Below, in pieces: positions 25,008 through 61,009 of a stretch of DNA of 64,000 bases (its first letter is position 1; every line of letters starts with the position of its first letter). Under the pieces are notes generated by a model. It was not told the DNA's origin. It saw only the letters and a list, made by a program, of their open reading frames with translations, and did no database searches. The stretch is taken from contig JALMLS010000562.1 of NCBI GenBank assembly GCA_038496445.1, positions 1 through 64,000 of the forward strand. The letters run 5' to 3'. The stretch is from Trichosphaerium sp. ATCC 40318. Taxonomy: Eukaryota; Protista; Tubulinea. The translations under genes and the position numbers were made by a program.

Positions 25008-25745
25008 ACTAATGTGAAACATGTGTTTAGTTGATATCTAATCGGCATTTTTCAGTATGTTTTGCACTAAGTCTACTCTCTTCTATCAACTAACCCAGGG
25101 AACTCAACTTTAGGCGATGTTGGGACGAAGACAAAATATCTTGTGCTAGCGCAGCGCCAAGTATTTGTTATCTATTATACAAGCAACATTTGGAAAATAA
25201 AAGAAACGTTTGCAGTATTTTGAAACAAATTGAAAAGGAAATTTTTGGGTGGGGTGGTGATTCTGCTTGCCCTGTTCTGTATAAGCGTTGTAGGTTGTTT
25301 GTAGTTAATTTATGTGAGTAGCACAAGTATGACCCTAACGTCTGTAACGGAGAAACACGTGTTACATCAAATGCAAGCATTGTATACACTTGCAAATCTG
25401 TCGCTTATATCGTATCTCAAACTGTTCTGACTATAGAGGTCGCTCAGTTTATTGGTACAAGGACCGTAATAGAGCAACCTCAGTTCTATTTCTGAAAAGA
25501 AGAAAATAGAAGTGGTAACCGAAGCAATGCAGCAACCAAAAGCCTGTCGCTTTTAGGCAATCAGAAAGGAAGCTCACAATTCGGCGCCTTTGCCTTCTAA
25601 CACAGGCATGTGATTTGAAATATCTTTTTCGTTTCTCTGTTCACTGACACTTTCTTGAGAATTAACATTAAACGGAAATTCTTCTGATTATATTTGCTGA
25701 ATCAGTGAAAAGATCTTCTACTACAGTATCATAAATTCAAGCTAC

Positions 25746-26375
25746 ATGTTCGAGCAAAAGCAACACAACACCTCAAAACACAACCGCAGACATAAACATG
25801 GGATAAAATCCAACACAACTAGGCGCTCGTATACTCTAGATCGAACATCCGCAAAAGAGGCTAGTTTACCCACAACTATCTACGACGTAAACAACCCACG
25901 CGTGGAGCTATCATTCAACAAAAAAAAACGTTGGGAGGTTGAAAAAGACGACAATACCGTCCTCATACACTACGAAGATTACGGCTGGGGTGGTTACAGA
26001 TCATGCTGCACTCACCACTACGACGTTAACACGGACTTTTTCAGAATAAATACCAACGAAACCGACGAAAACGACCAAGACAGTGATGTAGAAATAGTAA
26101 AGACCAGAAAAGGGCGTGTAGTACGCTCTAAAAACAAGCGCAAGAAGAATCAATCAAAAAAAGGCCAGCAACGTTCAACTACACTAGTTGACCTACAAAA
26201 AGACAGCGTACCAGTCTATGTAGTATCTAGAATGGCCAGCGATAAGAACAAAGCAAAGTGCTATCGCCAAGAGCGCTTTAACTTCAACCGTCCTTATGCC
26301 AAAGAAAATTGTGGCAAAGACAAAATGCTCATGAAGAAATACTTATCAAATCCTCGTGCCGCTGTAGCTCAATAG
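25746..26375 (+). CDS. Intronless hypothetical basic protein, 209 aa
   Basis: Uninterrupted ATG-TAG ORF in AT-rich DNA, followed by AATAAA; no family recognised. Confidence 0.65.
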   Translation: MFEQKQHNTSKHNRRHKHGIKSNTTRRSYTLDRTSAKEASLPTTIYDVNNPRVELSFNKKKRWEVEKDDNTVLIHYEDYGWGGYRSCCTHHYDVNTDFFRINTNETDENDQDSDVEIVKTRKGRVVRSKNKRKKNQSKKGQQRSTTLVDLQKDSVPVYVVSRMASDKNKAKCYRQERFNFNRPYAKENCGKDKMLMKKYLSNPRAAVAQ

Positions 26376-28184: not shown

Positions 28185-29896
28185 ATGTCAACGGTGCAAA
28201 ATAATAGAAAGCGTAAGCGTTCCGTGGGTTGTGGCAAGAGCCGTAAAAAAGCCAAAAAAGTTAAAAAAGAACGAGAGCCACCACTTTGGAAAGTTTTTCC
28301 CGTTCTACCGTATAACACGCGAGTACCATACGAAACATTTAAAACTAAGGGGTAATACAATGATTCTTTATTCAATACATTTTAAACCGTGCGCGTAGGT
28401 TCATTACACCTTTTTGGGGCGGAACAGACACACTAGAGATAGTGGAGTTTATGGACAAACTCATGTTAGTGCCTTTTGGTTCTTTTCCGAACTAATACCA
28501 CCAGGTCCTTCCTTTACCTTAAATTAGGGCTGTTAGTGATGATAAAAGAGTTGCAAAGATGACTAAACTTATGCCGGATCAAACACGTGGTTTTAATGTC
28601 ACAATGAAGTACAGAAAAAAATTTACCTTATTGTTTCGCTTTATTGTATTGTCTAAGCATCTATTAGTGCCTTGTTCTTCAAGATGAAGATAGGAGATGC
28701 TGTCATTGTACAAGATCCGAAACATAAGGAATACATTATTGGTAAAGTGGCTAGTGATGTTGAATACGCATACGAATCTGCCTTCGGTAATGATTATTCA
28801 CTTGACAAAAAATGTCAAATCTTATTTTTATTTTTAAGGTGTCGAGTTGATTGGTGCTACAATAGAGATTGCTTATAGAAGAGTAAAGTGGACCAAAATT
28901 ACTAGAGGCAATAAGCTTACTGGCAATCCATGGGGCGGGTTATTCGAAGAGGTGCACAAACAACGAGACATCTTTCTTTCTGAAATCGAAGTAACGAAAC
29001 AATTGTAAGGTTACAACATATTTAGGTTGCCATTGAGACCTCCGACACTGTGAATGGTGTAAAGAGAAAGATGCTTAATAAGGGATCAACGATTCATAAT
29101 TACTTAGGAAACAAAACTACATTAAAGTACAGACCCTTTGTAACAAGACCATCAATAGTGCGTGACTTTACACCTGAGGTATGGTAATATTTAAAGTGCA
29201 GTTAACCAAATGGTGTATGTAGGATGGCAGTGAATTTGATGCGAACGTTATTACTGTTTATACTCCTGAACAAATGTTTAAGGTATGCTTGATTTATCAT
29301 TGGCTTTTATTGAATCCAATGTTAGCTTGCTTACGGATATAATGTCCCTTGGTTGGGAAGGCTCCAATACAAAGCAATTGAGATTGAAGACAGCGAAGAT
29401 GAAGACGAAGATAAAGAAGATGATACAAAATTACGCCCTTGTGTCATAAATGAAGAAGAAGGAGGTTCTTTACAGCATGGCAGCAATGATGTGAATGAAT
29501 TACCTCCTAAAAAGGAAATGAAGGAAGACATTAAAGTTGTGATTAAAAAAGATCAGTATGATACGATTAAATCCAGAAATAAAGTCTTGTCGGATACAGA
29601 TGATGGTACGTACAGTTGTACAGAGTATATAAACTAATCCGGTTTTCAACAAGAAATTGAAATAGATTTGACAGGAGAAGATGAAAGTGAACAGCTATCA
29701 AAGTTGCAGACTTCTACCAACCATAAAGAAGATATAAGTTATCAAATACGAGAGAGTGAAACAAACTTACAGCAGTTAGAGGAGAAACTGATACAAGAAC
29801 AAGAACATTACAAAGAGCTATGTAAGTTACAACATAATAAGTAACGACATAATAATTAATGCTCACATGGAGCCTTAAATTACCAAAGACTCCCAA
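28185..29896 (+). CDS. NLS plus EVE/PUA-like (Mrr/McrB N-terminal-type) domain plus acidic linker; probably the 5' part of a gene continuing into the kinase at 31196
   Basis: Spliced MSTVQNNRKRKR..KKAKKVKK..LWKVFP..YETFKTKGFITPFWG..FFKMKIGDAVIVQDPKHKEYIIGKVASDVEY..RRVKW; no clear stop before the transposon. Confidence 0.7.
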
Positions 29897-29969
29897 GTTA
29901 CGTTTCCTGATTCGTGTTACTTATTTTCACCCTTTTTTTGTTGCTGTACTCGTGTACCACATTAACCAA

Positions 29970-31151
29970 GGAGATGTACAGAATGAAATGAATTGATTCC
30001 GAAAAAACACGAAATGTTCCGAAAAAAACACGAAATATTCCGTGTTTTTACCATCTCCAAACCATATCTCATATAGTTGAAGCAAGGTCTTTTAGTAGGT
30101 AGTTTCCAAGAGCATTGCAGCGCAGTTCGTAACAAAAAAGTAAAGTTGATAACAGCTTTTTGCAATCGTGATAATCTGAGTCAGTACTGCGACTATTTTG
30201 CGAAGTTGTCTAAAGAACAGAAATGGCATTGAGATAGTAAAATCACTGGTACTCCTGATAGGTTTTGTGGAGAAGTTTTTTTCACTTAACGTTGTACACA
30301 CGACTTTCGTAGTTTCTGTGTGTTGGAAGTGCTCCTTGCTTGTGCTACAGCAACTCAAGATGGTTTTTGTGCAAAACAATCACTTTGGAAGTGTACGAAA
30401 GTGATTTGAAAGCGCTTTATTTTCGCTTCCTAATCGCTTCATAACGCCTTGGTAGAAACGCCTTAGAATCACTTGGAAAGCGGTTTGAAAGTGATTTGAA
30501 AGTGATTCCAAAGTGATTTCTAGGCGCTTTTTTTCCTCAAAGCATCAGTATTGGTTGTAATACATCTGAGGTGCACTTACGAAATAACAAAATTGCAAAA
30601 GGTGCACCTACAACATCAAGAGATAAAAAAAGCGCCTAGAAATCGCTTTGGAATCACTTTCAAATCACTTTCAAACCGCTTTCCAAGTGATTCTAAGGTG
30701 TTTCTACCAAGGCATTATGAAGCGATTAGGAAGCGAAAATAAAGCGCTTTCAAATCACTTTTGAATCACTTGGAAAGTGCTCGCTATGCACAGAAAACCA
30801 TCTTGATTTGCTGTAGCACAAGCAAGGAGCACTTCCAACACACAGAAACTACAAAAGTCGTGTATACAATGCTAAATGAAAGAAAGTCAAATCACTGTAT
30901 CAGTAACCACTGATTGTACTATCTCAGTGACACTTCTCATTCTTTCTATGTCACTTTTTGGAACAAGAACAGCTGCTCACTACAATGCTCTTGGAAAACA
31001 ACCAAAAGTTCTTGCTTCAACTGTGTTAAGATGTGGTTGTCCAGGGCAATCTACTTACCAGTAAAAACACGGAATGTTTCAGAATATTTTGTGTTTTTTC
31101 AGAACATTTCGTGTTTTTTCGGAATCAATTCATTTCATTCTGTACATCTCC
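29970..31151. mobile_element. Non-autonomous foldback/MITE-like DNA transposon, 1182 bp, GG..CC ends, 3-bp TSD CAA
   Basis: Left end GGAGATGTACAGAATGAAATGAATTGATTCCG is the reverse complement of the right end; inverted arms run about 560 bp to a spacer at about 30535-30624; CAA at 29967-29969 and 31152-31154; no transposase ORF. Confidence 0.9.
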
Positions 31152-31195
31152 CAAATGTACAGTTCCTTAAACGTAGTAAACGAAATGCATGCTAG

Positions 31196-32158
31196 AAACA
31201 ACTTTTGGATATAACCAAACGCAACTACCATGTAAATCTCTCCTAGATTCTCCATGTTTCTCCCAGTTTTTGTTAAGGCAAACTGTTAATCTGGAATTAA
31301 GTCAATTGCAAAAGTCAAGCATCACTGATCAAAGCAACACCTCCCAGAACTTCACTTCCTTCATCAACAACACGCCTAATGTACCGATCTTGGTACGTCT
31401 CATATCTTTTGCCTACAACCTTGAAGAGAAAGCAACTGTGATTTACTTGTTATCTAGCTATCTTCAGGACTTACATCTGGTGGAGAGCTATATTCTCGCA
31501 GCTCCAACAGGAGCCAATGTAAGAAGCGCTGAGAACAACCCATTCGAGTCTGCAGTTGTTGGACATAAGAGCTATGATTTCTCTTCACTGGTTGAAGCTT
31601 TGCATGCCATACACAACTGTGGCTTTGTTCACAGGTAAGCAACGCAGATTGTCAGATCGAAAATTATTTTTTCCTATTATTTTCGCGTTTTGACTTTTTG
31701 ACTCTAGAGATGTGAGCATTAACAATATTATTGTCCTTAATGGTGTATGTCAGCTCATTGACTTTGGAAGTGCTATGAAGAAAAACACTGTTCCCGATTA
31801 CTTTCAAGGGACATTCCTGTTCTGTTGCCTTGATCTTCACAAGCAAGTTTCGGAATATGATTTAAAAATATACCTACCAAAATACGATCTTATATCTCTT
31901 GTGATGATATATATTGCCCTGAACCACTGGAATCTCTTTGTAGCAGTCAACAAAGCACATAACAAAGTCAATTGGGACGAGCTACGCTTTATAACCACTG
32001 ATGAGTATAAGATATACTACAAAGCCTGGAACGACCTTATTAACAGTTTTAACCATTATTACATACCCCTCATGGATATGGCAGTAAACTGCAAGTATGA
32101 TGACATGAAAAAATGGTTCATTGAAGAGAGTAAAAGAATAATAGAATATGTAAACTAA
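31196..32158 (+). CDS. FunK1 (fungal-type)-like protein kinase domain
   Basis: LHAIHNCGFVHR-DVSINNII, LIDFGSA, GTFLF, YLPKYDLISL. Confidence 0.85.
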
Positions 32159-36118: not shown

Positions 36119-37625
36119 ATGTTATCTAGGCGACTATTCCCAGGTTTGATGCGATATTATTATAAAATCAGCTAAAATTGCCTTTAGGCACTCAACGACA
36201 CGTTGAAAACCAGCGAACAAAGCTCGAATCAATAGGAGAGGTACTTAGTATCAAAACATTTGACAACTGGCACGACATTACTTGTAAACAAGTAGTTCAA
36301 AACGGAGGCAGAGATGTAATCAGCAGGTATATTTACAAGCACGTGACACCTTTTACCAGTTTAATAACTCGTGCCTTTTAGGTATAATGATTCACTGGCT
36401 GTAGCATTAGCGTCCGTGTACAAGGAGTATGAGTGGCCGTCTCACACTAAGTAAGATTTTGGTGTTTTGTTGCAAACAACTTGTATTTATTTGATGTAGC
36501 TATACAAACGACGGATTTGTTAGCCGCGATTATCAGAGAGAAGTTATTGAGAATATTGCATTGTACCTTAGCATTAGCGTACTGGATGATTGGTGTAGTG
36601 TAAAACAAACGGATGTCATACGACATGGTGGCCTTAAGATAGTAAAGTTGTAAGAAGCGTTAATTTTAAATTAAACTTTGACAGCCTCAGGCACGGTAAC
36701 GACATTATGAATGCACTCAAATACTTGTATCCCAAACATCCATGGCAATCTGTCACGTAAGTAGCAGCTTCCGTATAAACATTTGCATATTCAAGTTTGG
36801 ATTAGTACTACAAAGCATGAAGAAGCCATAACAGCAAAGAGAGTTGCTCAATTTAACTCTATTGCTGAAGCGCTTGGCGTCAAATCACTGTACCAATGGT
36901 ATAATATACCCTTCTCTCAATTCAAGCGTGCTGGTGGCAAACAGCTTATGAAGAGATACTACAGATCACTCCCTAGCGCTCTCGAAGAAGTGTATCCAAG
37001 TTTTGATTGGAAGTTAGAGAACTTTAAGTACGCCACAAGAAGTTTGCTGAAAAACTGATTAAAACAAATAGGAGTGTGCCTTCTGGACATTGGAGAATTC
37101 TCGATAATCAAAGAGCTCGCCTAGAAACAATAGGAAGAGAAATTGGTGTGAACAAACTTGATGATTGGCATGGAGTAACTGATAAACAAGTTAGACAACG
37201 TAAAGGTGGAGGTATCCTCACAAGGTACATCTTACTATTTGGAACTAAACTCACTAATCTTTTCCTTAAGGTATAATTCGTCCTTGCAAGAAACTCTCAA
37301 GTCTCTTTACCCTAATCATGGCTGGAGATTTTACAGAAAACCAGGGCAAAGAAACACACCCCAGGGTTATTGGAATGACAGTCGAAATCAACTTGAATTT
37401 CTACAACACGTTGAACATAAACTTGGAATTATTCATGACAATGATTGGTATAGTGTTTCAGCTCTTCAATTACAACAACTTGGAGGTTCTGGCATGTTGA
37501 GATACTTTCCTGAGTCCGTAAAACTCATTAGGCCTTATTCTGGATTGGACTGGGACAAGTTTAATGCAACAAAAAGGTCAAGGCAACGATGGTTGCAACA
37601 TTGTATAACTACGCTATCACAGTGA
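36119..37625 (+). CDS. Tandem ~70-aa repeat protein, paralog A (5 repeats, no nuclease domain; start unresolved, possibly a pseudogene)
   Basis: Repeats of G(H/Y)W....NQR..LE.I...L.I...DDW..V....V...GG..L.RY..SL..AL...YP...W. MLSRRLFPG at 36119 is out of frame with repeat 1. Confidence 0.75.
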
Positions 37626-53316: not shown

Positions 53317-56300
53317 ATGGATAAAGCTTTCCAGGTTATAGAAAAAACCAGTAAGGAGCCGTTGCGAGTTACAAAGTTACAGATTGAAGTAAACGTTACT
53401 TCGTTCCTCGCAGGCACGCTCTATCATAACTGTGAAGCTAATTTTAAGGCAGAAATATCCCTTACAATATCATTTACAAACAGCACCAATCAAAAGAGCG
53501 TAGAAGCAGAGCTCAACTTCCCTTTAGATGATGGCAGTACAGTATCAGGCTTTGCATGTGACATAGACGGCGAACTCGTTGACGGCGTCGTTACAAGTAA
53601 AGAAAAGGCTCAAGTAGCTTTCGAGAATGCTGTACGCGATTAAAAAATACCTAGAGCTTATTTCAACAAACACTGACAAAAAAACGGTTTAGGTAAGAAG
53701 CACTAAACCAGGTAAAATTGCTACCGTAGAGCATGTTCAAGGCAACCTGTTTCGTGCTCGTATTTTCCCTGTACCACGCTCTGGACGTGTAGTTAGAATA
53801 TCCTGGTGTTTGGATGTTAAGAAGGGAGTTTACACGCTGCCTTTGATGTTTCAAACTGCTCTTGAACAATTATCTGCCAAGTTTTCTGTATGGTTTTTTT
53901 GGGATCTTTTTTCCCTTTTGTAAGTTTCTTCGACATCTCACGTGTTTATAAGGTTTCTCTTCCAACCGAAATAAGTTCGTCTCCGTTCTTGTCAAACACA
54001 ACTATGTTTAGAGAACGCGCAAACTTCTTGAAAGGACAAACCAAAGATGGGAATACAACATGGACACTAAGCACTGAAAAAAAAAACTTTCGAATGACAA
54101 AAGGGTTTACACTGAACCTTCCAAAAAGCTCTTCATCAAGTCTTTCCACAATATTCGAACCTCACATACAACCTGACGCTAGTGACATACCACAGCACTA
54201 CTTTTGCGTTAACGCTTCGTTTGATGTTGACAGTGCAGCTCCGAGTACTATGGGCGATTCTATTGTTGTTCTATGGGATACATCAAGAAGCGGTGGTAAA
54301 GATAATAGACAAGTAGAACTTAGAACACTTGCTGGGATTTTAAGACATTTCTCATCAAAGATGAAACGAGTACATATTGTTGAGTTTAGTGATCACGTGG
54401 TTCGCAACGAAAAAAACGTTTTTGATATTAACAGAGTAGATGCTATTATAAACCACTTGAGTACGTGAAAAGTGTAGTGACCAAAAAACCCTTCTAGGCC
54501 TCCAAAGAGGCTCTTATTTTTGCTGATTTTGTACTTTTTCCGAATTGTTTTGACCATTTTAACGGTTTTTTGAAGGAAACAATATTCGCTATGATGGCGG
54601 TACAAATTTGGAATGTGTTGTTGAGGCTATGGACGAGATGATGGGTGTAGATGTAGCGTTTTATCTTCTGTTTTCAGATGGCATGTCAACGCTTGGTTTA
54701 GAGCCATCTACTGCCTTACGTACACCTGTTTATACATTCACAAGGTACTAAATAGTAGAATACTTTGCCGTGTTACTAAATATACTTTTTTGACAGCTCT
54801 GAAACAGCCAACTTTACCGCTTTAAAACAAATTGCACGAAACTCATCTGCTGAGTTTTTCAATCTACAAGAAAATGAAAACGTGTTTGATCGTGTAGGGA
54901 AGCCATCATTTGGATATATTGGCTCTGATTATGACACTGATATTATTTCAGAAATGTATGTTTGGATTCAGACATTTTTTTTACTTACTTTTGTTGATGT
55001 AAGATATCCATCTGTGCCTACATGGGCTCAAGGAAATTTCAAGGTATCTGGTATAATTAAAGGTAGACCAAAGTTCGAGACAAAAATCTCATTGGTAAGG
55101 CGACTCGTGCGAGTGTTTTGATTCTCACTTTGTACTTAGAAATTTGGGTTTGGCACCAAAGTAACAAAAACGCTGACCTATACTCTTACCGTTCCAGAAA
55201 ACGTAGTAGAAAAACAGAATGGACTTATACCTCGTTTCTTGGCAGCTAAGAAAATGGGAGAATTGATGCTTCAAAAGAGTGAAGCTGAGCAACTTGTTAG
55301 TCTTGGAAAACGGTATAGGTACAAAAATTGTACTTTGTGTTGTGATAAATTCTGAAATTTCTGCTAGGCTTGTGACACCTGTTACATCGATGCTTGTATT
55401 AGATAGTCTAAATCAATACCTTAAATACGAAGTAGAGCCGCCTATTTCACTACCTTTCCACGGTGAATGGGTTAAGAAAATGGCACGGCTTAATAGAGAG
55501 AAAAAGGATGAAATGGGCAAAAAAATGGACTTTGCAAAGCAGTTGTGGGCAAGGCGTTTAACATGGTGGAACTCAACTGCAATAACTTTTAACTTCCCAC
55601 CAAATATGCTTCATCACACTAATTTCTTTGAGAAACGTGTACACGACCAGCAACGGTAAGGCAACTACGCACAAACCACGTTGGACATTTGATACTTTTT
55701 TTTTGACATTGTTTTCTTTCTTGCTCGAGTTAGTTACATCTGCCTAATTTATTTACAGTGACTTGGAGATAATTATGTCCAGTTATACAGCAATCAGTAA
55801 GAGGAAACAATTACCAGAAACGGAAAATATGCCTCGAAAAAAGGCACAAAAGATAACTTTGGATGATATGGAATTTGTTCGTGCTGCAGAGAGAAAACTA
55901 GAATTGCTTGCTGCGGAGATGAATAAAAAATCAAGAACAAAAAATGATGAATCAAGGCTCTTTAAAGAGAAGAAAGCAGAAAAACAAATAACAACGTGGG
56001 ATGATGACGATGAAGACGATGAAGAACAAGAGGAACACGAAGTACGATTCAATATTTTTTATTCAAATTCATTACTCATTTACACTAACTTCATTGTAAA
56101 GCAGCTTGACGCTTTATCAATTTCATATGCCGTTCTTTGTAACAGATTTCTTCCATCCGAGGATAATGAGAAAGAAAACCAATTCGACGCTTTCACATTC
56201 TGTGCCGAAGAGAGATCTCCTCAATACTCTCCTACGTCGCCTCAATACTCTCCTACATCCATTGCATACTCTGCTACATCACCTCAGTATTCTCCTAGAT

Positions 56301-58618
56301 CGCCTGCATACTCTGATAATTCAATTGCATCCCCTTCCTACTCTCCTAAGTCTACTAAATATGAACCTGTGTCTCCTTCATACTCTCCTAAATCTTTAGT
56401 ACGACCCTTTCTGTTTCTGAAACAGAAACTCATTATTTCTTTCTTAGGCACGCTCTCGTTCTAGATCTCCTAGATCAACAAAAGTGCGAAAAAGAAGAAT
56501 GAGATCATCCTCAATATCAAGATGTACCACATCTTTGAACATCGAGAAGCTGCCTCCAGTTCCTCCGAGAGAGAGTAAACCACTACCACCAGCGCCACAA
56601 CAGCAACAGCAACAACAGCAACGTCCACAGCAAGAAGCGGAAAGCAAACAGAGGCGATATGATCGCTCTTCAGCCTACCGTGTGCCATCACCACAACAGC
56701 AACAGCAACAGCAACAACAGCAACAGCAACAGCCACAGCAAGAAGCGGAAAGCAAACAGAGGCGATACGATCGCTCTTCAGCCTACCGTGTGCCATCACC
56801 ACAACAAGAAGCGGAAAGCAAACAGAGGCGATACGATCGCTCTTCAGCCTACCGTGTGCCATCACCAATTAACCAAGACGTACAGTGATTCTATGTTTAC
56901 ATACTCTAACATGAATGAAATTTTTAGGCTTTCTCTATGTCATGCTCATCAGCTTCGTCATATAATTCTTCAGTATCATCATGTTATGATGAGTCAACGC
57001 CTTCTCCGCCACTAAGACAGAAATTGAAGAATATTCAATTCGATTCAGCAGATGATATCGAGATGATACCGGACGACGATATGTGGGTGCCAGATACCAT
57101 GATATATTCACTTGACAAGAAACTACCGGCTAGTAGCTCAAAAAACCTGGCGAGAATGGCCGATCTTGAGATCTGTACGGCAAAGTCTGTAATCAACGGA
57201 GACAAGGTAAAACTAGAAACGTACATGGATTCTATGAGACGTAACGTTGCAGACAAAAATCACAGATACTCAAGACTTTCAACTGAAATCAAAAAGAAAA
57301 TACTTGGACATATTGAAGAAACTCAAGATTGGCTTGTCGGTAACCAACAAGTCTCACATACCGAATACCACAAGCAATTGGTCAATTTACAAAGCAAGTT
57401 GAGCTTACTACTATTCAATGTGAGGATGCCTGAATTGACTCATCAACGTGCAAATGCAACCATTTCTTTAAAGAGTTGGCAACCTCTTAAAGCACATTAT
57501 ATGACATCACTTCAATCTTGTCCTAAGACTGCTTATGCTAGTTTATACTCAAAGCTTTCAAAAGAGTTTGGATATAAAACGCCATCTTTCTATTGGGATG
57601 TTGGTATGTTCTTACTTGAAAAAGGCGAGGTGTCCTTTGCTCTTCGGTATGTTCTTCTTTTTTTTCTTTTCGAAAAAATCTTAACCACTGTTTTTTTTTA
57701 GAGTTTTGTCAAACCTTGTCGAGTGGGATATTGGTAATCCTCAGTTCATGCGCATACTTGGTTATACTTACCTCAAACTTGGCCTTTACGATCTAGCTGT
57801 CAGTATTTTTAAACGTGTCAAGGATAAACGGTACATGCTGCTCCAAAAAACCTTCATTTGTCAACTTTCTCTAAGTGGTTGTTTAGTACTGAAGAGCCTC
57901 AATCTTACCGTGATTTGGCTCTCGCTTTGCTTCATAGAAATAGAAATGAAGACGCAATACAAGCTGCCACTTTACTCACACGCGTAGTACAAGGAGAGTG
58001 GGATATTAGGTTTTCTCAAATTGAGGTTGTTGCTCTCACTGAACTTGCTTACTTAATGTCCAAATTTGACAAGACTTTGCTTGCTTCAAGTGATACATTC
58101 TATTCAATGCTCCGAGACTATAATGTAAAGCTCGATGTACCAGTTACAGTTGCTTTGCGCGTAGTATTAACTTGGGATGTTGATGATACAGACATGGAGT
58201 TACACGTTTATGAGGCACGTGACTGAGTTTTGTTTGTACTGTTGCAGCTTTCGCTTACTTTCTTGTAGCCGGATGGCAGTCATTGTCACTCCTTCAAAAA
58301 TACAACCACTTATGGCGGCCTTCTATCAAGAGATATGGGTAGAGGTTACGGACCTGAAGTTTATTTGTCAAGGTACTTCAACAGCCTAATATGAAACTCT
58401 TGATGTTGACATTTGTTAGGAATGCGCAGGTTGGCACTTACAAGATTTGTGCCAAATTGTTCGCCACACGAGGTCGTACTGTCAATCAGCCTATTACTGC
58501 TACTGTAGCTATTTATACACATTATGGGGACAAAGAGAGAGAGCAAGAGGCCATTCATATTGTGAGATTATCTGAAGAAAAAGAGCAAGTTCAAATAGCA
58601 AATGTTGTTTTTTCTTAA
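53317..58618 (+). CDS. VIT - vWA - TPR - DUF2135/YfaP-like protein with large low-complexity insertions
   Basis: [24 protein letters not shown] (VIT); LWDTSRS, YDGGT, LFSDG (vWA); [12 protein letters not shown]; [10 protein letters not shown]; [23 protein letters not shown]; GYGPEVY. Confidence 0.85.
56225..56396 (+). repeat. RNA polymerase II CTD-like heptads (YSPTSPQ and variants), about 8 units
   Basis: [57 protein letters not shown]. Confidence 0.85.
56598..56868 (+). repeat. Three near-identical ~66-bp coding repeats ([22 protein letters not shown]) with CAA/CAG polyQ spacers
   Basis: Direct repeats visible at the DNA and protein levels. Confidence 0.95.
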
Positions 58619-59090: not shown

Positions 59091-61009
59091 GGCGCTCGAG
59101 TATATCCCATAGGCCACTGGGAAAGCATACAAAACCAACGGACGTTTTTTGAAACAGTCCTAGCACCAAAAGCGGTTGTACATACTTTTGATGGCTGTTA
59201 TGCAGTAACAACACGCGATGTGATCAAACACGGCGGTAGAGGACTACTGAAAAGGCAAACACACCTTATTGGCTAGAATACCAACAAATTCATCTTAGAT
59301 ACGTGAGTTCTATCTCGCAAGCGGTGTTGACGATATTTCCTGAAAGAAAATGGCACATGTGGAAATTCAAGTACTACAATCAATTAAGAGGCTTCTAATG
59401 TAGTACAGCGCAACTCCTGGACACCACTGGGATAGTATACATGGCCAAAATAAAAGATTCAAAGCATTAGAAGAGCAGCTGAAAGTAAAACATGTGGATG
59501 ACTTTTCCAATATCACTTTTAGTGATGTGAAAAAACAAGGTGGCAGACTAAGGAGAAATCAAATTGCAACAATAGAGGATATAGCACAGAAGCTGAATAT
59601 TAGGAATCTAGAGGCTTGGTACAATGTCACTAGAACTGATGTAGTAGATAAAGGAGGCGAGACTTTGTTGCACAGGTATGTACAAGACTGTTCTAGCATT
59701 ACTTGTAAGATTCACAACTATGTTAACCCCTTGTTGACAGGTATGGCGGTTCCTTGTCAAAAACACTCTTTGATTTGTTTCCTTCATTCAAATGGGATAT
59801 CACAAGATTCGAGCACGTGCTTTTAAGAAAACTCTGTTTGTCTTTAGCTAAACTTCTATGCTTTTTTTAGAGTCGTACCTTGGGATTATTTGCAATCTGA
59901 GAGCCACCAAAGAACGTTATTAGACAGGTTTGCAGAGCATGTTCGCGTAATGAGCCTAGATAATTGGCATAATGTAAATATAAACAACTTTGATATGTCA
60001 AAGTTCAACCTTGATGCAATTCTTAAACAGTACGTTTTTGTAAACATGCATCTCTTTTTGAGGTTGAAAGCTAACTACCTCATTAGGTATTACTCTAGAT
60101 CTCTTGCTAGAGCATTAAAACAGTTGTATCCACACTTTAAATGGAACTTCATAAAGGATAAAGGTCATTGGCAAAGGAGACAGATCCAGAAACAGTTCCT
60201 GCAAAAAGTTGCAAAGAAATTTAATGTTTCATCAAATGATGATTGGTATCGAGTTTCAAAACCTCAGATTGCATCTATGGGTGGTATAGGGATATTGAAA
60301 TACTATCCACAAATACTCAAAACGCTTGACCCTCATTTTTCTTGGGATTGGAAGCGGTTCCCGCTATTATCGAAGCGAAGTCAACAACGGTTCGATATTC
60401 TTATTCAAACTAGATTCTTTTTATTAATTTTATCAAGGTGCCTTGTTGAGAGTATACAAAAGTTATTTCCCTATGACATTGTACAAGAAGAACACTGTAT
60501 TGGTGTAAGAAAGATAACAGGGACACAGCTCACAGTTGATGCATTTGTGGTAACAAAAAACTTGGCCTTTGAGTACCAAGGTAAAGAAATGTAACGATTA
60601 GTTTATGAACCCTAAGCCTCCATTAGGCGAATACCACTACCATGATAGGGTATTTCCTAGCAATATACCTGTAGTTTCACATGAAGCTAGAGACAATGAA
60701 AAACTACAACAGTGCACAAGTGCAGGTAAGATAACAACTTCAAAAAAAGGTAAACAAATTCGTCTATCTCATTTTTCCGCGATAGGTATTGATTTAGTTA
60801 TTGTACCATACTGGTGGACTTTACATGATACAGACACTTTGGCTGCTACCACAAAATATTATGCACCTCACGTGACTTTTCACGTGAAAGTTGATAAATC
60901 CGTCAAACCGCTGCTACCTTCTGAGTTGTATAGTAAATCACGTGACACTGTGTCAAGCAGCAAAAAGGTATTAATGGGTCCTTCGCCATTTCAAGTTCAG
61001 GTGACATAA
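59091..61009 (+). CDS. Tandem ~70-aa repeat protein, paralog B, with C-terminal Vsr/PD-(D/E)xK-like nuclease domain (start unresolved, upstream of 59091)
   Basis: About 4.5 repeats as in paralog A, then QQRCLVESIQKLFP..VQEE..LTVDAFVVTKNLAFEYQG-EYHY..RDNEKLQQCTSAG-IDLVIVPYWW. Confidence 0.8.

What the first reader, a model, noticed from the sequence alone, without database searches (positions are those of the whole stretch)
28185..32158. Nuclear EVE/PUA-like restriction-system domain apparently fused to a FunK1 kinase
Seen: after a bipartite NLS the spliced protein has W.V.P...F...G.I...W and F..MKIGD.VIV......YIIG.V.SD.EY...RRVKW. From recall, this is the pattern of the PUA/EVE-like N-terminal domains of bacterial Mrr and McrB modification-dependent restriction proteins. 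The gene has several spliceosomal introns, so it is domesticated. A phase-compatible intron (29897-31195) links it to a FunK1 kinase domain. Inference: a modified-DNA sensor wired to a kinase output rather than a nuclease, possibly for antiviral or anti-transposon defence.
Basis: partly seen in the sequence, partly recalled or inferred. Interest (0 to 1): 0.78.

Follow-up and report, generated by a model that had tools for sequence, protein, structure and literature searches.

The report
Restriction-enzyme reader domain beside protist kinase
An intron-rich gene of a microbial eukaryote carries a domain otherwise found on bacterial restriction enzymes, whose bacterial relatives are predicted to fold like readers of chemically modified DNA or RNA bases, and it likely, but not provably, splices across a transposon to a kinase-like tail, which would make a modified-nucleic-acid sensor with a signalling output instead of a nuclease.

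Summary
The reader domain is real; the kinase fusion is open. Nine GT-AG exons (28185-29844, introns 35-63 nt, called by eye) give a 422-aa frame with a basic NLS-like start. Exon 4 matches the N-terminal domain of bacterial Mrr-nuclease and McrB proteins (tblastn E 2e-5; hhalign 96-97%), Pfam DUF8426, PADLOC PDC-S02. A model of one bacterial relative folds like EVE/YTH (Z 11.6 to PH1033, 10.4 to VcaM4I). Exons 1-3 fit only by eye. Downstream, a 1182-nt foldback element with a 3-bp target duplication separates it from a FunK1-like kinase piece (ESM Atlas 0.92; no Pfam hit; no relatives found). No RNA run or genome was available. I put one present-day fused gene at about 40%, separate genes 30%, a fusion broken by the element 15%. 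The kinase N-lobe lacks a clear glycine loop and lysine. This scan noted DUF8426 fused to a RING domain in another protist (unchecked).

The parts
28185..28351 (+). Exon 1: start codon, basic bipartite-NLS-like stretch (28206-28268), first strand and helix of the reader domain
   Evidence: Sequence; W, F, G align with bacterial relatives in MAFFT only; no significant profile match. NLS pattern is recalled.
28399..28464 (+). Exon 2: begins FITPFWG, the W that by spacing corresponds to the family's G-x5-W
   Evidence: By eye; no profile match; 3' boundary least certain
28528..28608 (+). Exon 3: helical insert of the reader domain (uncertain; alternative acceptor CAG at 28504)
   Evidence: Frame arithmetic only; no profile match
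28668..28786 (+). Exon 4: core of the DUF8426-type domain
   Evidence: tblastn E 2e-5; PDC-S02 E 1.7e-4; hhalign 95.8-96.8%; Atlas lead PF28530 at 0.77
28839..28990 (+). Exon 5: RRVKW strand and end of the domain
   Evidence: Weak colinear match, alignment
29026..29282 (+). Exons 6 (29026-29178) and 7 (29223-29282): unassigned region, no Mrr nuclease match
   Evidence: No Pfam/PADLOC/NCBIfam hit for exon 6, no match to the Mrr_cat-containing profile A4; exon 7 not scanned
29326..29844 (+). Exons 8 (29326-29605) and 9 (29654 to donor 29822, 29826 or 29841, or to stop 29844): acidic linker and coiled-coil-like segment
   Evidence: Sequence; weak sub-threshold coiled-coil family hits
29873..29896 (+).
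   Evidence: Inference from phases; GAG acceptor atypical; no RNA support
29970..31151 (.). 1182-nt non-coding foldback element with 58-nt outer arms, nested arms and 11/20/21-nt repeats, flanked by CAA/CAA (29967-69, 31152-54)
   Evidence: Inverted repeats, ends, tandem repeats, one long hairpin of -687 kcal/mol for 29890-31200
31196..31634 (+). Kinase N-lobe-like and catalytic-loop exon(s); probable in-frame intron 31393-31467; 5' boundary uncertain (acceptors 31195, 31246, 31266)
   Evidence: Open frame 31180-31638; motifs by eye; no Pfam or PDB hit
31708..32158 (+). Kinase C-lobe exon (DVS, N, DFG, GT..F) and stop
   Evidence: ESM Atlas look-alikes in PF17667/PF00069 clusters, 0.91-0.92, recognition 2570; no Pfam hit; 0 hits among 1.84 billion representatives

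Best explanation
The locus is a domesticated copy of the DUF8426-type reader domain of bacterial Mrr and McrB restriction proteins, broken by short introns, which likely forms one gene with the downstream FunK1-like kinase exons by splicing across a foldback transposon, and whose product would bind modified bases in nuclear DNA and pass the signal on through a kinase or pseudokinase domain in place of a nuclease. Shown: the exon 4 homology, the short GT-AG introns in one frame, the element and its target duplication, the kinase motifs. Predicted: the EVE/YTH fold (from a bacterial relative). Inferred: nuclear location (basic motif), the splice across the element (its 1.18-kb hairpin would bring the flanks within about 125 unpaired bases), modification-dependent binding, dimerisation through the coiled-coil-like linker, and a role against foreign or mobile DNA.
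For: Domain; McrB and Mrr contexts; fold: AF2 pLDDT 89, Foldseek top 39 listed rows all EVE or YTH, Z 11.6 PH1033, 10.4 VcaM4I, 10.1 YTHDC1. Fusion (all circumstantial): same strand, only 159 non-element bases between stop 29844 and the first in-frame kinase ATG 31189; that ATG is preceded by out-of-frame ATGs at 31155 and 31185; three possible donors sit just before the stop (29822, 29826, 29841) and a stop-rich 15-nt tandem repeat starts at 29823; a 22-nt internal exon is used by the neighbouring phytochelatin synthase gene (33909-33888), so small exons are tolerated; the element folds on itself.
Against: No transcript evidence. The direct splice 29822 to 31195 creates a stop (T + AA). I found several other in-frame paths by hand, so phase compatibility is expected by chance. 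GTAAGT is not enriched in this window (45 vs 45.7 by chance) and branch-like motifs are not either (71 vs 89.8 and 50 vs 50.0), so neither marks a real splice site. The genome is compact (112 nt between this ATG and the divergent IMPase ATG), so a separate kinase gene fits. No glycine loop and no clear beta-3 lysine in any path I could build. Exons 1-3, which would carry part of the base pocket, have no significant match. No relative with both domains was found.
Confidence: 0.4

Rival explanations
1. Two genes. A 422-aa nuclear reader protein ends at TAA 29844, and the kinase-like exons form a separate small gene (about 270 aa) with the element in the intergenic gap. The reader would then act as an adaptor through its acidic and coiled-coil tail.
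For: Exon 9 reads to a stop without any further splice. Intergenic gaps are as short as about 110 nt here. Bacterial stand-alone forms of the domain exist (211-aa proteins L016, L017). The direct splice is a stop.
Against: The first in-frame kinase ATG (31189) has two out-of-frame ATGs just upstream; donors and a stop-rich repeat lie at the end of exon 9.
Confidence: 0.3
2. A once fused gene now broken. The element landed in an intron or small exon of the linker, and transcripts now stop, mis-splice into the element (its left end supplies an AG at 29981) or end at 29844; the kinase exons are decaying.
For: The element is young (outer arms 98% complementary) and 20-30 times longer than the introns around it; the kinase N-lobe looks degenerate; a new acceptor-like site appears at 29962-29981.
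Confidence: 0.15
3. Whatever the exon path, the domain reads modified RNA (YTH-like, m6A or m5C) or binds nucleic acid without regard to modification, and serves nuclear RNA processing or chromatin, not defence.
For: YTH domains tie with EVE domains in the fold search (Z 10.1-10.0 vs 11.6-10.4). Bell et al. report that eukaryotes recruited EVE-like DCD and YTH domains to mRNA processing (PMC7641849, passages) and predict RNA targets for YTH-like domains of some McrB systems (PMC11090510, passages).
Against: The nearest relatives found are fused to Mrr_cat or McrB, which by established knowledge act on DNA; the best-scoring restriction-enzyme match, VcaM4I, reads 5mC/5hmC DNA (PMC6765204, passages).
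Confidence: 0.15

Closest known systems
DUF8426 (Pfam 38.1 PF28530) N-terminal domain of Mrr_cat proteins; PADLOC candidate PDC-S02; the label COG4127 comes from earlier scan notes and was not tested
   Same: Exon 4 and 5 motifs in the same order and spacing; domain at the N-terminus
   Different: Eukaryotic, split by introns, preceded by a basic NLS-like stretch; no Mrr_cat or McrB GTPase domain follows
EVE-domain restriction readers (VcaM4I/TspA15I group; EVE-McrB) and human THYN1
   Same: Predicted fold of the bacterial relative (Z 11.6 PH1033, 10.4 VcaM4I, 7.2 THYN1)
   Different: No Pfam EVE match; one McrB (L015) carries a Pfam EVE domain and, separately, this domain; binding never tested for this family in the papers I saw
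YTH and DCD domains of eukaryotes
   Same: Same fold group; earlier cases of restriction-type readers taken up by eukaryotes (PMC7641849, passages)
   Different: Different sequence family; no kinase fusion is mentioned in that paper's main text (1 unrelated use of 'kinase')
FunK1 / Pkinase_fungal (PF17667) and Crinkler-type kinases
   Same: Atlas look-alikes; HR-D-x-S catalytic loop and GT..F motif (signature recalled); Crinkler proteins also join variable N-terminal modules, including DNA-binding ones, to nuclease or kinase domains (PMC5289972, passages)
   Different: No Pfam hit on the separate exons; no clear glycine loop or beta-3 lysine; no restriction-nuclease or ubiquitin-like header detected
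Non-autonomous foldback/MITE-like DNA transposons, PIF/Harbinger-like by GG ends and 3-bp duplication (classification recalled)
   Same: Terminal inverted repeats, 3-bp target duplication, no long ORF
   Different: Duplication is CAA, not the usual TWA; nearly the whole 1182 nt is palindromic; single copy in the window

Membership tests
DUF8426 (PF28530) | Sequence match to the C-terminal half (F..mk.GD.v...Y.iG.v.sdY...R.V.W) | tested here: met
   exon 4; exon 5, weak; relatives carry PF28530 in 120 of 120 listed rows
DUF8426 (PF28530) | Sequence match to the N-terminal half (W...F...G..iGW) | tested here: inconclusive
   No significant match for exons 1-3 alone; W, F, G align by MAFFT
DUF8426 (PF28530) | Spliced protein passes the Pfam model's threshold | not testable with these tools
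   The scan tools take no spliced sequence, and the local Pfam copy gave no PF28530 hit even on a bacterial relative
PUA superfamily, EVE/YTH group | EVE/YTH beta-barrel fold (tested on bacterial relative L006) | tested here: met
   transferred to the window's protein by homology only
EVE domain in the strict sense (PF01878) | Match to the Pfam EVE model | tested here: not met
   No hit on the exons or on the homologous domain of relatives
EVE/YTH readers | Selective binding of a modified base | not testable with these tools
   Needs a binding assay
Mrr-type / PDC-S02 or McrB restriction enzymes | Fused nuclease or AAA+ GTPase domain | tested here: not met
   No such hit in the exons scanned; exon 7 (20 aa) not scanned
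FunK1 (PF17667) | Match to the family model | tested here: inconclusive
   No Pfam hit on the two halves, which split the catalytic loop; Atlas ranks 2 and 3 are PF17667 clusters at 0.92 and 0.91 but share 166 and 164 features, under the 170 typical of true members
Active protein kinase | Catalytic D, N and DFG | tested here: met
   Read from the sequence across intron 31635-31707
Active protein kinase | Glycine-rich loop and beta-3 lysine | tested here: inconclusive
   None clear in the frames read by eye; 5' exon boundary uncertain; single-sequence model of the C-lobe exon unusable (pLDDT 43)
Single fused gene | Transcript joining exon 9 to the kinase exons | not testable with these tools
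   No run could be listed
Crinkler-type proteins | Header plus restriction-nuclease domain before the kinase | tested here: inconclusive
   None detected in exons 6, 8, 9; exons too short for a firm negative
PIF/Harbinger transposons | Cognate transposase and TWA target | not tested
   No genome held; duplication is CAA

The most novel reading that the evidence does not exclude
A microbial eukaryote has rewired a bacterial restriction-enzyme reader into a nuclear receptor kinase: one spliced 690-720-aa protein that recognises modified bases in invading viral or transposon DNA and answers by phosphorylation, with DUF8426 being recruited repeatedly to eukaryotic signalling outputs (kinase here, RING ligase in another protist noted by this scan).
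Probability: 0.25. Interest if true: 0.78.

Novelty: new variant of a known kind. Interest (0 to 1): 0.5.

Why it matters
DUF8426 is a widespread, biochemically untested domain of candidate anti-phage proteins. An intron-bearing eukaryotic copy adds a further restriction-type reader to those known to have entered eukaryotes (SRA, EVE/THYN1, YTH, DCD). If the kinase fusion is real, it would be a modified-nucleic-acid sensor with a signalling output, for which I found no description in the searches run, and it would give a simple test of whether protists sense modified foreign DNA. If the fusion is not real, what remains is a modest but genuine case of gene transfer and domestication.

Tried and rejected
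No whole genome is held, so no paralogue or empty-allele survey. No RNA holder was listed; this is no evidence on expression, and no reads could be laid. The script machine was lost, so exon models after that are by hand and no profile score for the spliced protein exists. Homologue searches with single exons found nothing: exon 4 frame, 0 of 30 candidates; kinase C-lobe exon, 0 of 102, 0 among 1.84 billion representatives, 0 of 102 and 0 of 592 metagenome candidates, one plasmid hit at E 6. The one viral locus (L009) is a 22-residue match on the strand opposite a long phage gene and was dropped as chance. Profile A3 found no viral locus (0 of 23). The phage hit H4 (E 0.09) is an unrelated-looking 79-aa gene and was not pursued. 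PDB sequence searches gave no useful match. The single-sequence model of the kinase exon was too poor to search with. I first took the strong donor at 29822 and a branch-like motif at the insertion site as good evidence for an intron; both motifs proved unenriched in this window, so I downgraded them. 'DUF8426' occurs in 0 papers of the library. The PADLOC preprint does not mention S02 in its main text; its supplements, which I could not see, may describe it. Zhang et al. 2016 on Crinkler proteins is not held; one paper fetched by a guessed id was irrelevant.
Full report
Setting. The window is 64 kb, about 38% G+C, with short GT-AG introns and tightly packed genes: it is a microbial eukaryote. 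I did not identify it; some repeat-rich proteins in the window look amoebozoan to me, which is recall and untested. No genome is held and no sequencing run could be listed. After no scripts could be run, so all exon arithmetic below is by hand.

Gene model. From ATG 28185 I call nine exons: 28185-28351, 28399-28464, 28528-28608, 28668-28786, 28839-28990, 29026-29178, 29223-29282, 29326-29605 and 29654-29844. The eight introns are 47, 63, 59, 52, 35, 44, 43 and 48 nt, all GT-AG, and the phases chain (2, 2, 2, 1, 0, 0, 0, 1) to 1269 nt, 422 residues and a stop. Exons 2 and 3 are the least certain. Residues 8-28 are two basic clusters eight residues apart, a bipartite-NLS pattern by recall.

The N-terminal domain. 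Exon 4 alone (39 aa) found a Proteus plasmid 'restriction endonuclease' at E 2e-5, 54.5% over 33 residues (3 records), and four PADLOC PDC-S02 models, the best at E 1.7e-4. That protein is an N-terminal domain plus Mrr_cat. A profile of six relatives and two window exons retrieved 333 proteins among 7994 scored candidates; all 120 listed carry PF28530 and PF04471; the Atlas names PF28530 DUF8426 and gave it as a weak lead for exon 4 itself (0.77). A plasmid search with the domain gave 42 records, among them AAA ATPases next to McrC genes and 211-aa stand-alone forms. Exon 4 matches three different bacterial profiles at hhalign probability 95.8, 95.8 and 96.8; exon 5 matches the next part of each profile, weakly (12.4, 7.7, 4.6). 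Exons 1, 2 and 3 gave no significant match in 8 of 8 tests. By eye the spacing holds: W, then F, G four later (aligned), and a W six residues after that G once intron 1 is removed, as in the family's G-x5-W. That half is therefore plausible, not shown.

The fold. I could not fold the spliced protein. An AlphaFold2 model of the bacterial relative L006 (152 aa, 6 sequences, pLDDT 89) gave EVE proteins and YTH domains in all 39 rows that Foldseek listed (best E 9.8e-6, TM about 0.5). The wide structural search gave PH1033 Z 11.6 (rmsd 2.7, 113 aligned), VcaM4I 10.4 (3.2, 119), YTHDC1 10.1 (2.6, 116), THYN1 7.2 and archaeal McrB N-termini 6.9 and 6.1. The family is thus PUA-superfamily, EVE/YTH group. 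It is not Pfam EVE itself: one McrB has a Pfam EVE domain at 197-332 and this domain after it. Kosinski et al. 2005 (PMC1189080, passages) left the N-terminal domain of COG4127 unassigned; that COG label reached me from earlier scan notes and I did not test it. VcaM4I-group enzymes cut 5mC/5hmC DNA (PMC6765204, passages; PMC12707154, passages); EVE-McrB fusions are common and fast-evolving (PMC7641849, section 9 and passages); PUA-like domains are listed as readers in PMC4738411 (passages). None of these passages tests DUF8426.

The element. 29970-31151 is a nest of inverted repeats: outer arms 58 nt at 98%, inner arms 92 nt at 92% and 137 nt at 98%, with CAA on both flanks and no second copy of its end in the window. 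As RNA, 29890-31200 folds into one hairpin of -687 kcal/mol (no shuffle control at this length). It is a young, non-coding foldback transposon. Without it, 159 nt separate the stop at 29844 from the first in-frame ATG of the kinase frame (31189).

The kinase piece. Two open frames, 31180-31638 and 31694-32158, are joined by a 73-nt intron that splits the catalytic loop after HR; DVS, the following N and DFG are intact. A further in-frame 75-nt intron (31393-31467) is probable. Pfam gave no hit on any piece. The Atlas placed the C-lobe exon next to PF17667 Pkinase_fungal clusters (0.92 and 0.91, ranks 2 and 3; rank 1 is an unnamed bacterial cluster). FunK1 is described as sharing mainly the C-lobe with typical kinases (PMC3203195, passages). 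No relative was found in any collection. I see no glycine-rich loop and no clear beta-3 lysine, so a pseudokinase or a decaying gene is possible. 'FunK1-like' is fair; membership is not shown.

The fusion. The path needs the donor at 29822, a GAG acceptor at 29872 and a 24-nt exon; it gives 719 residues (694 with the extra intron). Splicing 29822 straight to 31195 gives a stop. Other in-frame routes exist, for example 29822 to 31246, or 29841 to 29888 followed by an 8- or 13-nt exon; with this organism's loose donors such routes arise easily. For the fusion: closeness and strand, two out-of-frame ATGs (31155, 31185) ahead of ATG 31189, three donors and a stop-rich 15-nt repeat at the end of exon 9, and a 22-nt internal exon in the neighbouring phytochelatin synthase gene. 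Against: GAG in 0 of 10 other acceptors, no enrichment of GTAAGT (45 vs 45.7) or of branch-like motifs (71 vs 89.8; 50 vs 50.0), an intergenic gap of only 112 nt at the 5' end of this very gene, and no relative with both domains. Sequence alone cannot decide. I give the present-day fusion with a DNA-reading role 0.40, separate genes 0.30, a broken fusion 0.15 and an RNA-reading or modification-blind role 0.15.

Mechanism, as inferred. The NLS-like stretch takes the protein to the nucleus; the EVE/YTH-type domain flips a modified base into a pocket; clustering on densely modified DNA brings the coiled-coil-like linkers and kinase domains together, giving phosphorylation or, if the kinase is dead, a scaffold. 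This mirrors the bacterial layout with the nuclease swapped for a signalling domain, and recalls the modular Crinkler proteins (PMC5289972, passages). None of these steps is tested.

Novelty. Library searches found no paper naming DUF8426, none with FunK1, kinase and amoebozoa together, and only general reviews for EVE/PUA with kinase (listings); most subscription papers are not in the library. This scan has 16 earlier notes on DUF8426 in at least 15 genomes (8 shown), including a protist gene joining it to a RING domain and bacterial Hsp70 fusions; I checked none. A eukaryotic DUF8426 is therefore not unique to this window, and the kinase pairing, the new part, is the unproven part. Verdict: new variant of a known kind, interest 0.5.

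Noticed in passing
window 28073-26600 (-): Inositol monophosphatase gene (PF00459), divergent from the finding with only 112 nt between the two start codons; probably a shared promoter.
   Followed up: partly
window 34069-32200 (-): Phytochelatin synthase gene (PF05023) with a 22-nt internal exon at 33909-33888; its 3' end nearly meets the kinase stop.
   Followed up: partly
window 36000-34400 (-): Alpha-galactosidase (GH27, PF16499) in many short exons.
   Followed up: partly
window 29970-31151: The foldback element is almost wholly palindromic with nested arms and 11-, 20- and 21-nt repeats; the 8 bases after its right target duplication repeat a motif inside its own terminal repeat, and its left end offers a new acceptor-like AG at 29981.
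   Followed up: partly
window 29823-29859: 2.5 copies of a stop-rich 15-nt unit overlapping the end of exon 9.
   Followed up: partly
window 25701-26375 (+): Intronless-looking 224-codon frame, basic and acidic, no Pfam hit.
   Followed up: partly
window 37179-37625 and 59404-61009 (+): Two genes with tandem W-rich repeats and a C-terminal nuclease-like motif; resemblance to amoebozoan repeat proteins is recalled, not tested.
   Followed up: no
window 53866-58226 (+): Large gene with a vWA-like motif, a heptad repeat resembling the RNA polymerase II tail (about 56270-56400) and 108/66-nt Q-rich repeats.
   Followed up: no
L015:1436-3181: A plasmid McrB with three readers in a row: McrB_N, Pfam EVE and a DUF8426-type domain.
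   Followed up: partly
L016:2444-3079 and L017:1438-2073: Stand-alone 211-aa DUF8426-type proteins without nuclease on Priestia and Lactococcus plasmids (17 of 42 records were Lactococcus); their first strand and helix look most like exon 1.
   Followed up: partly
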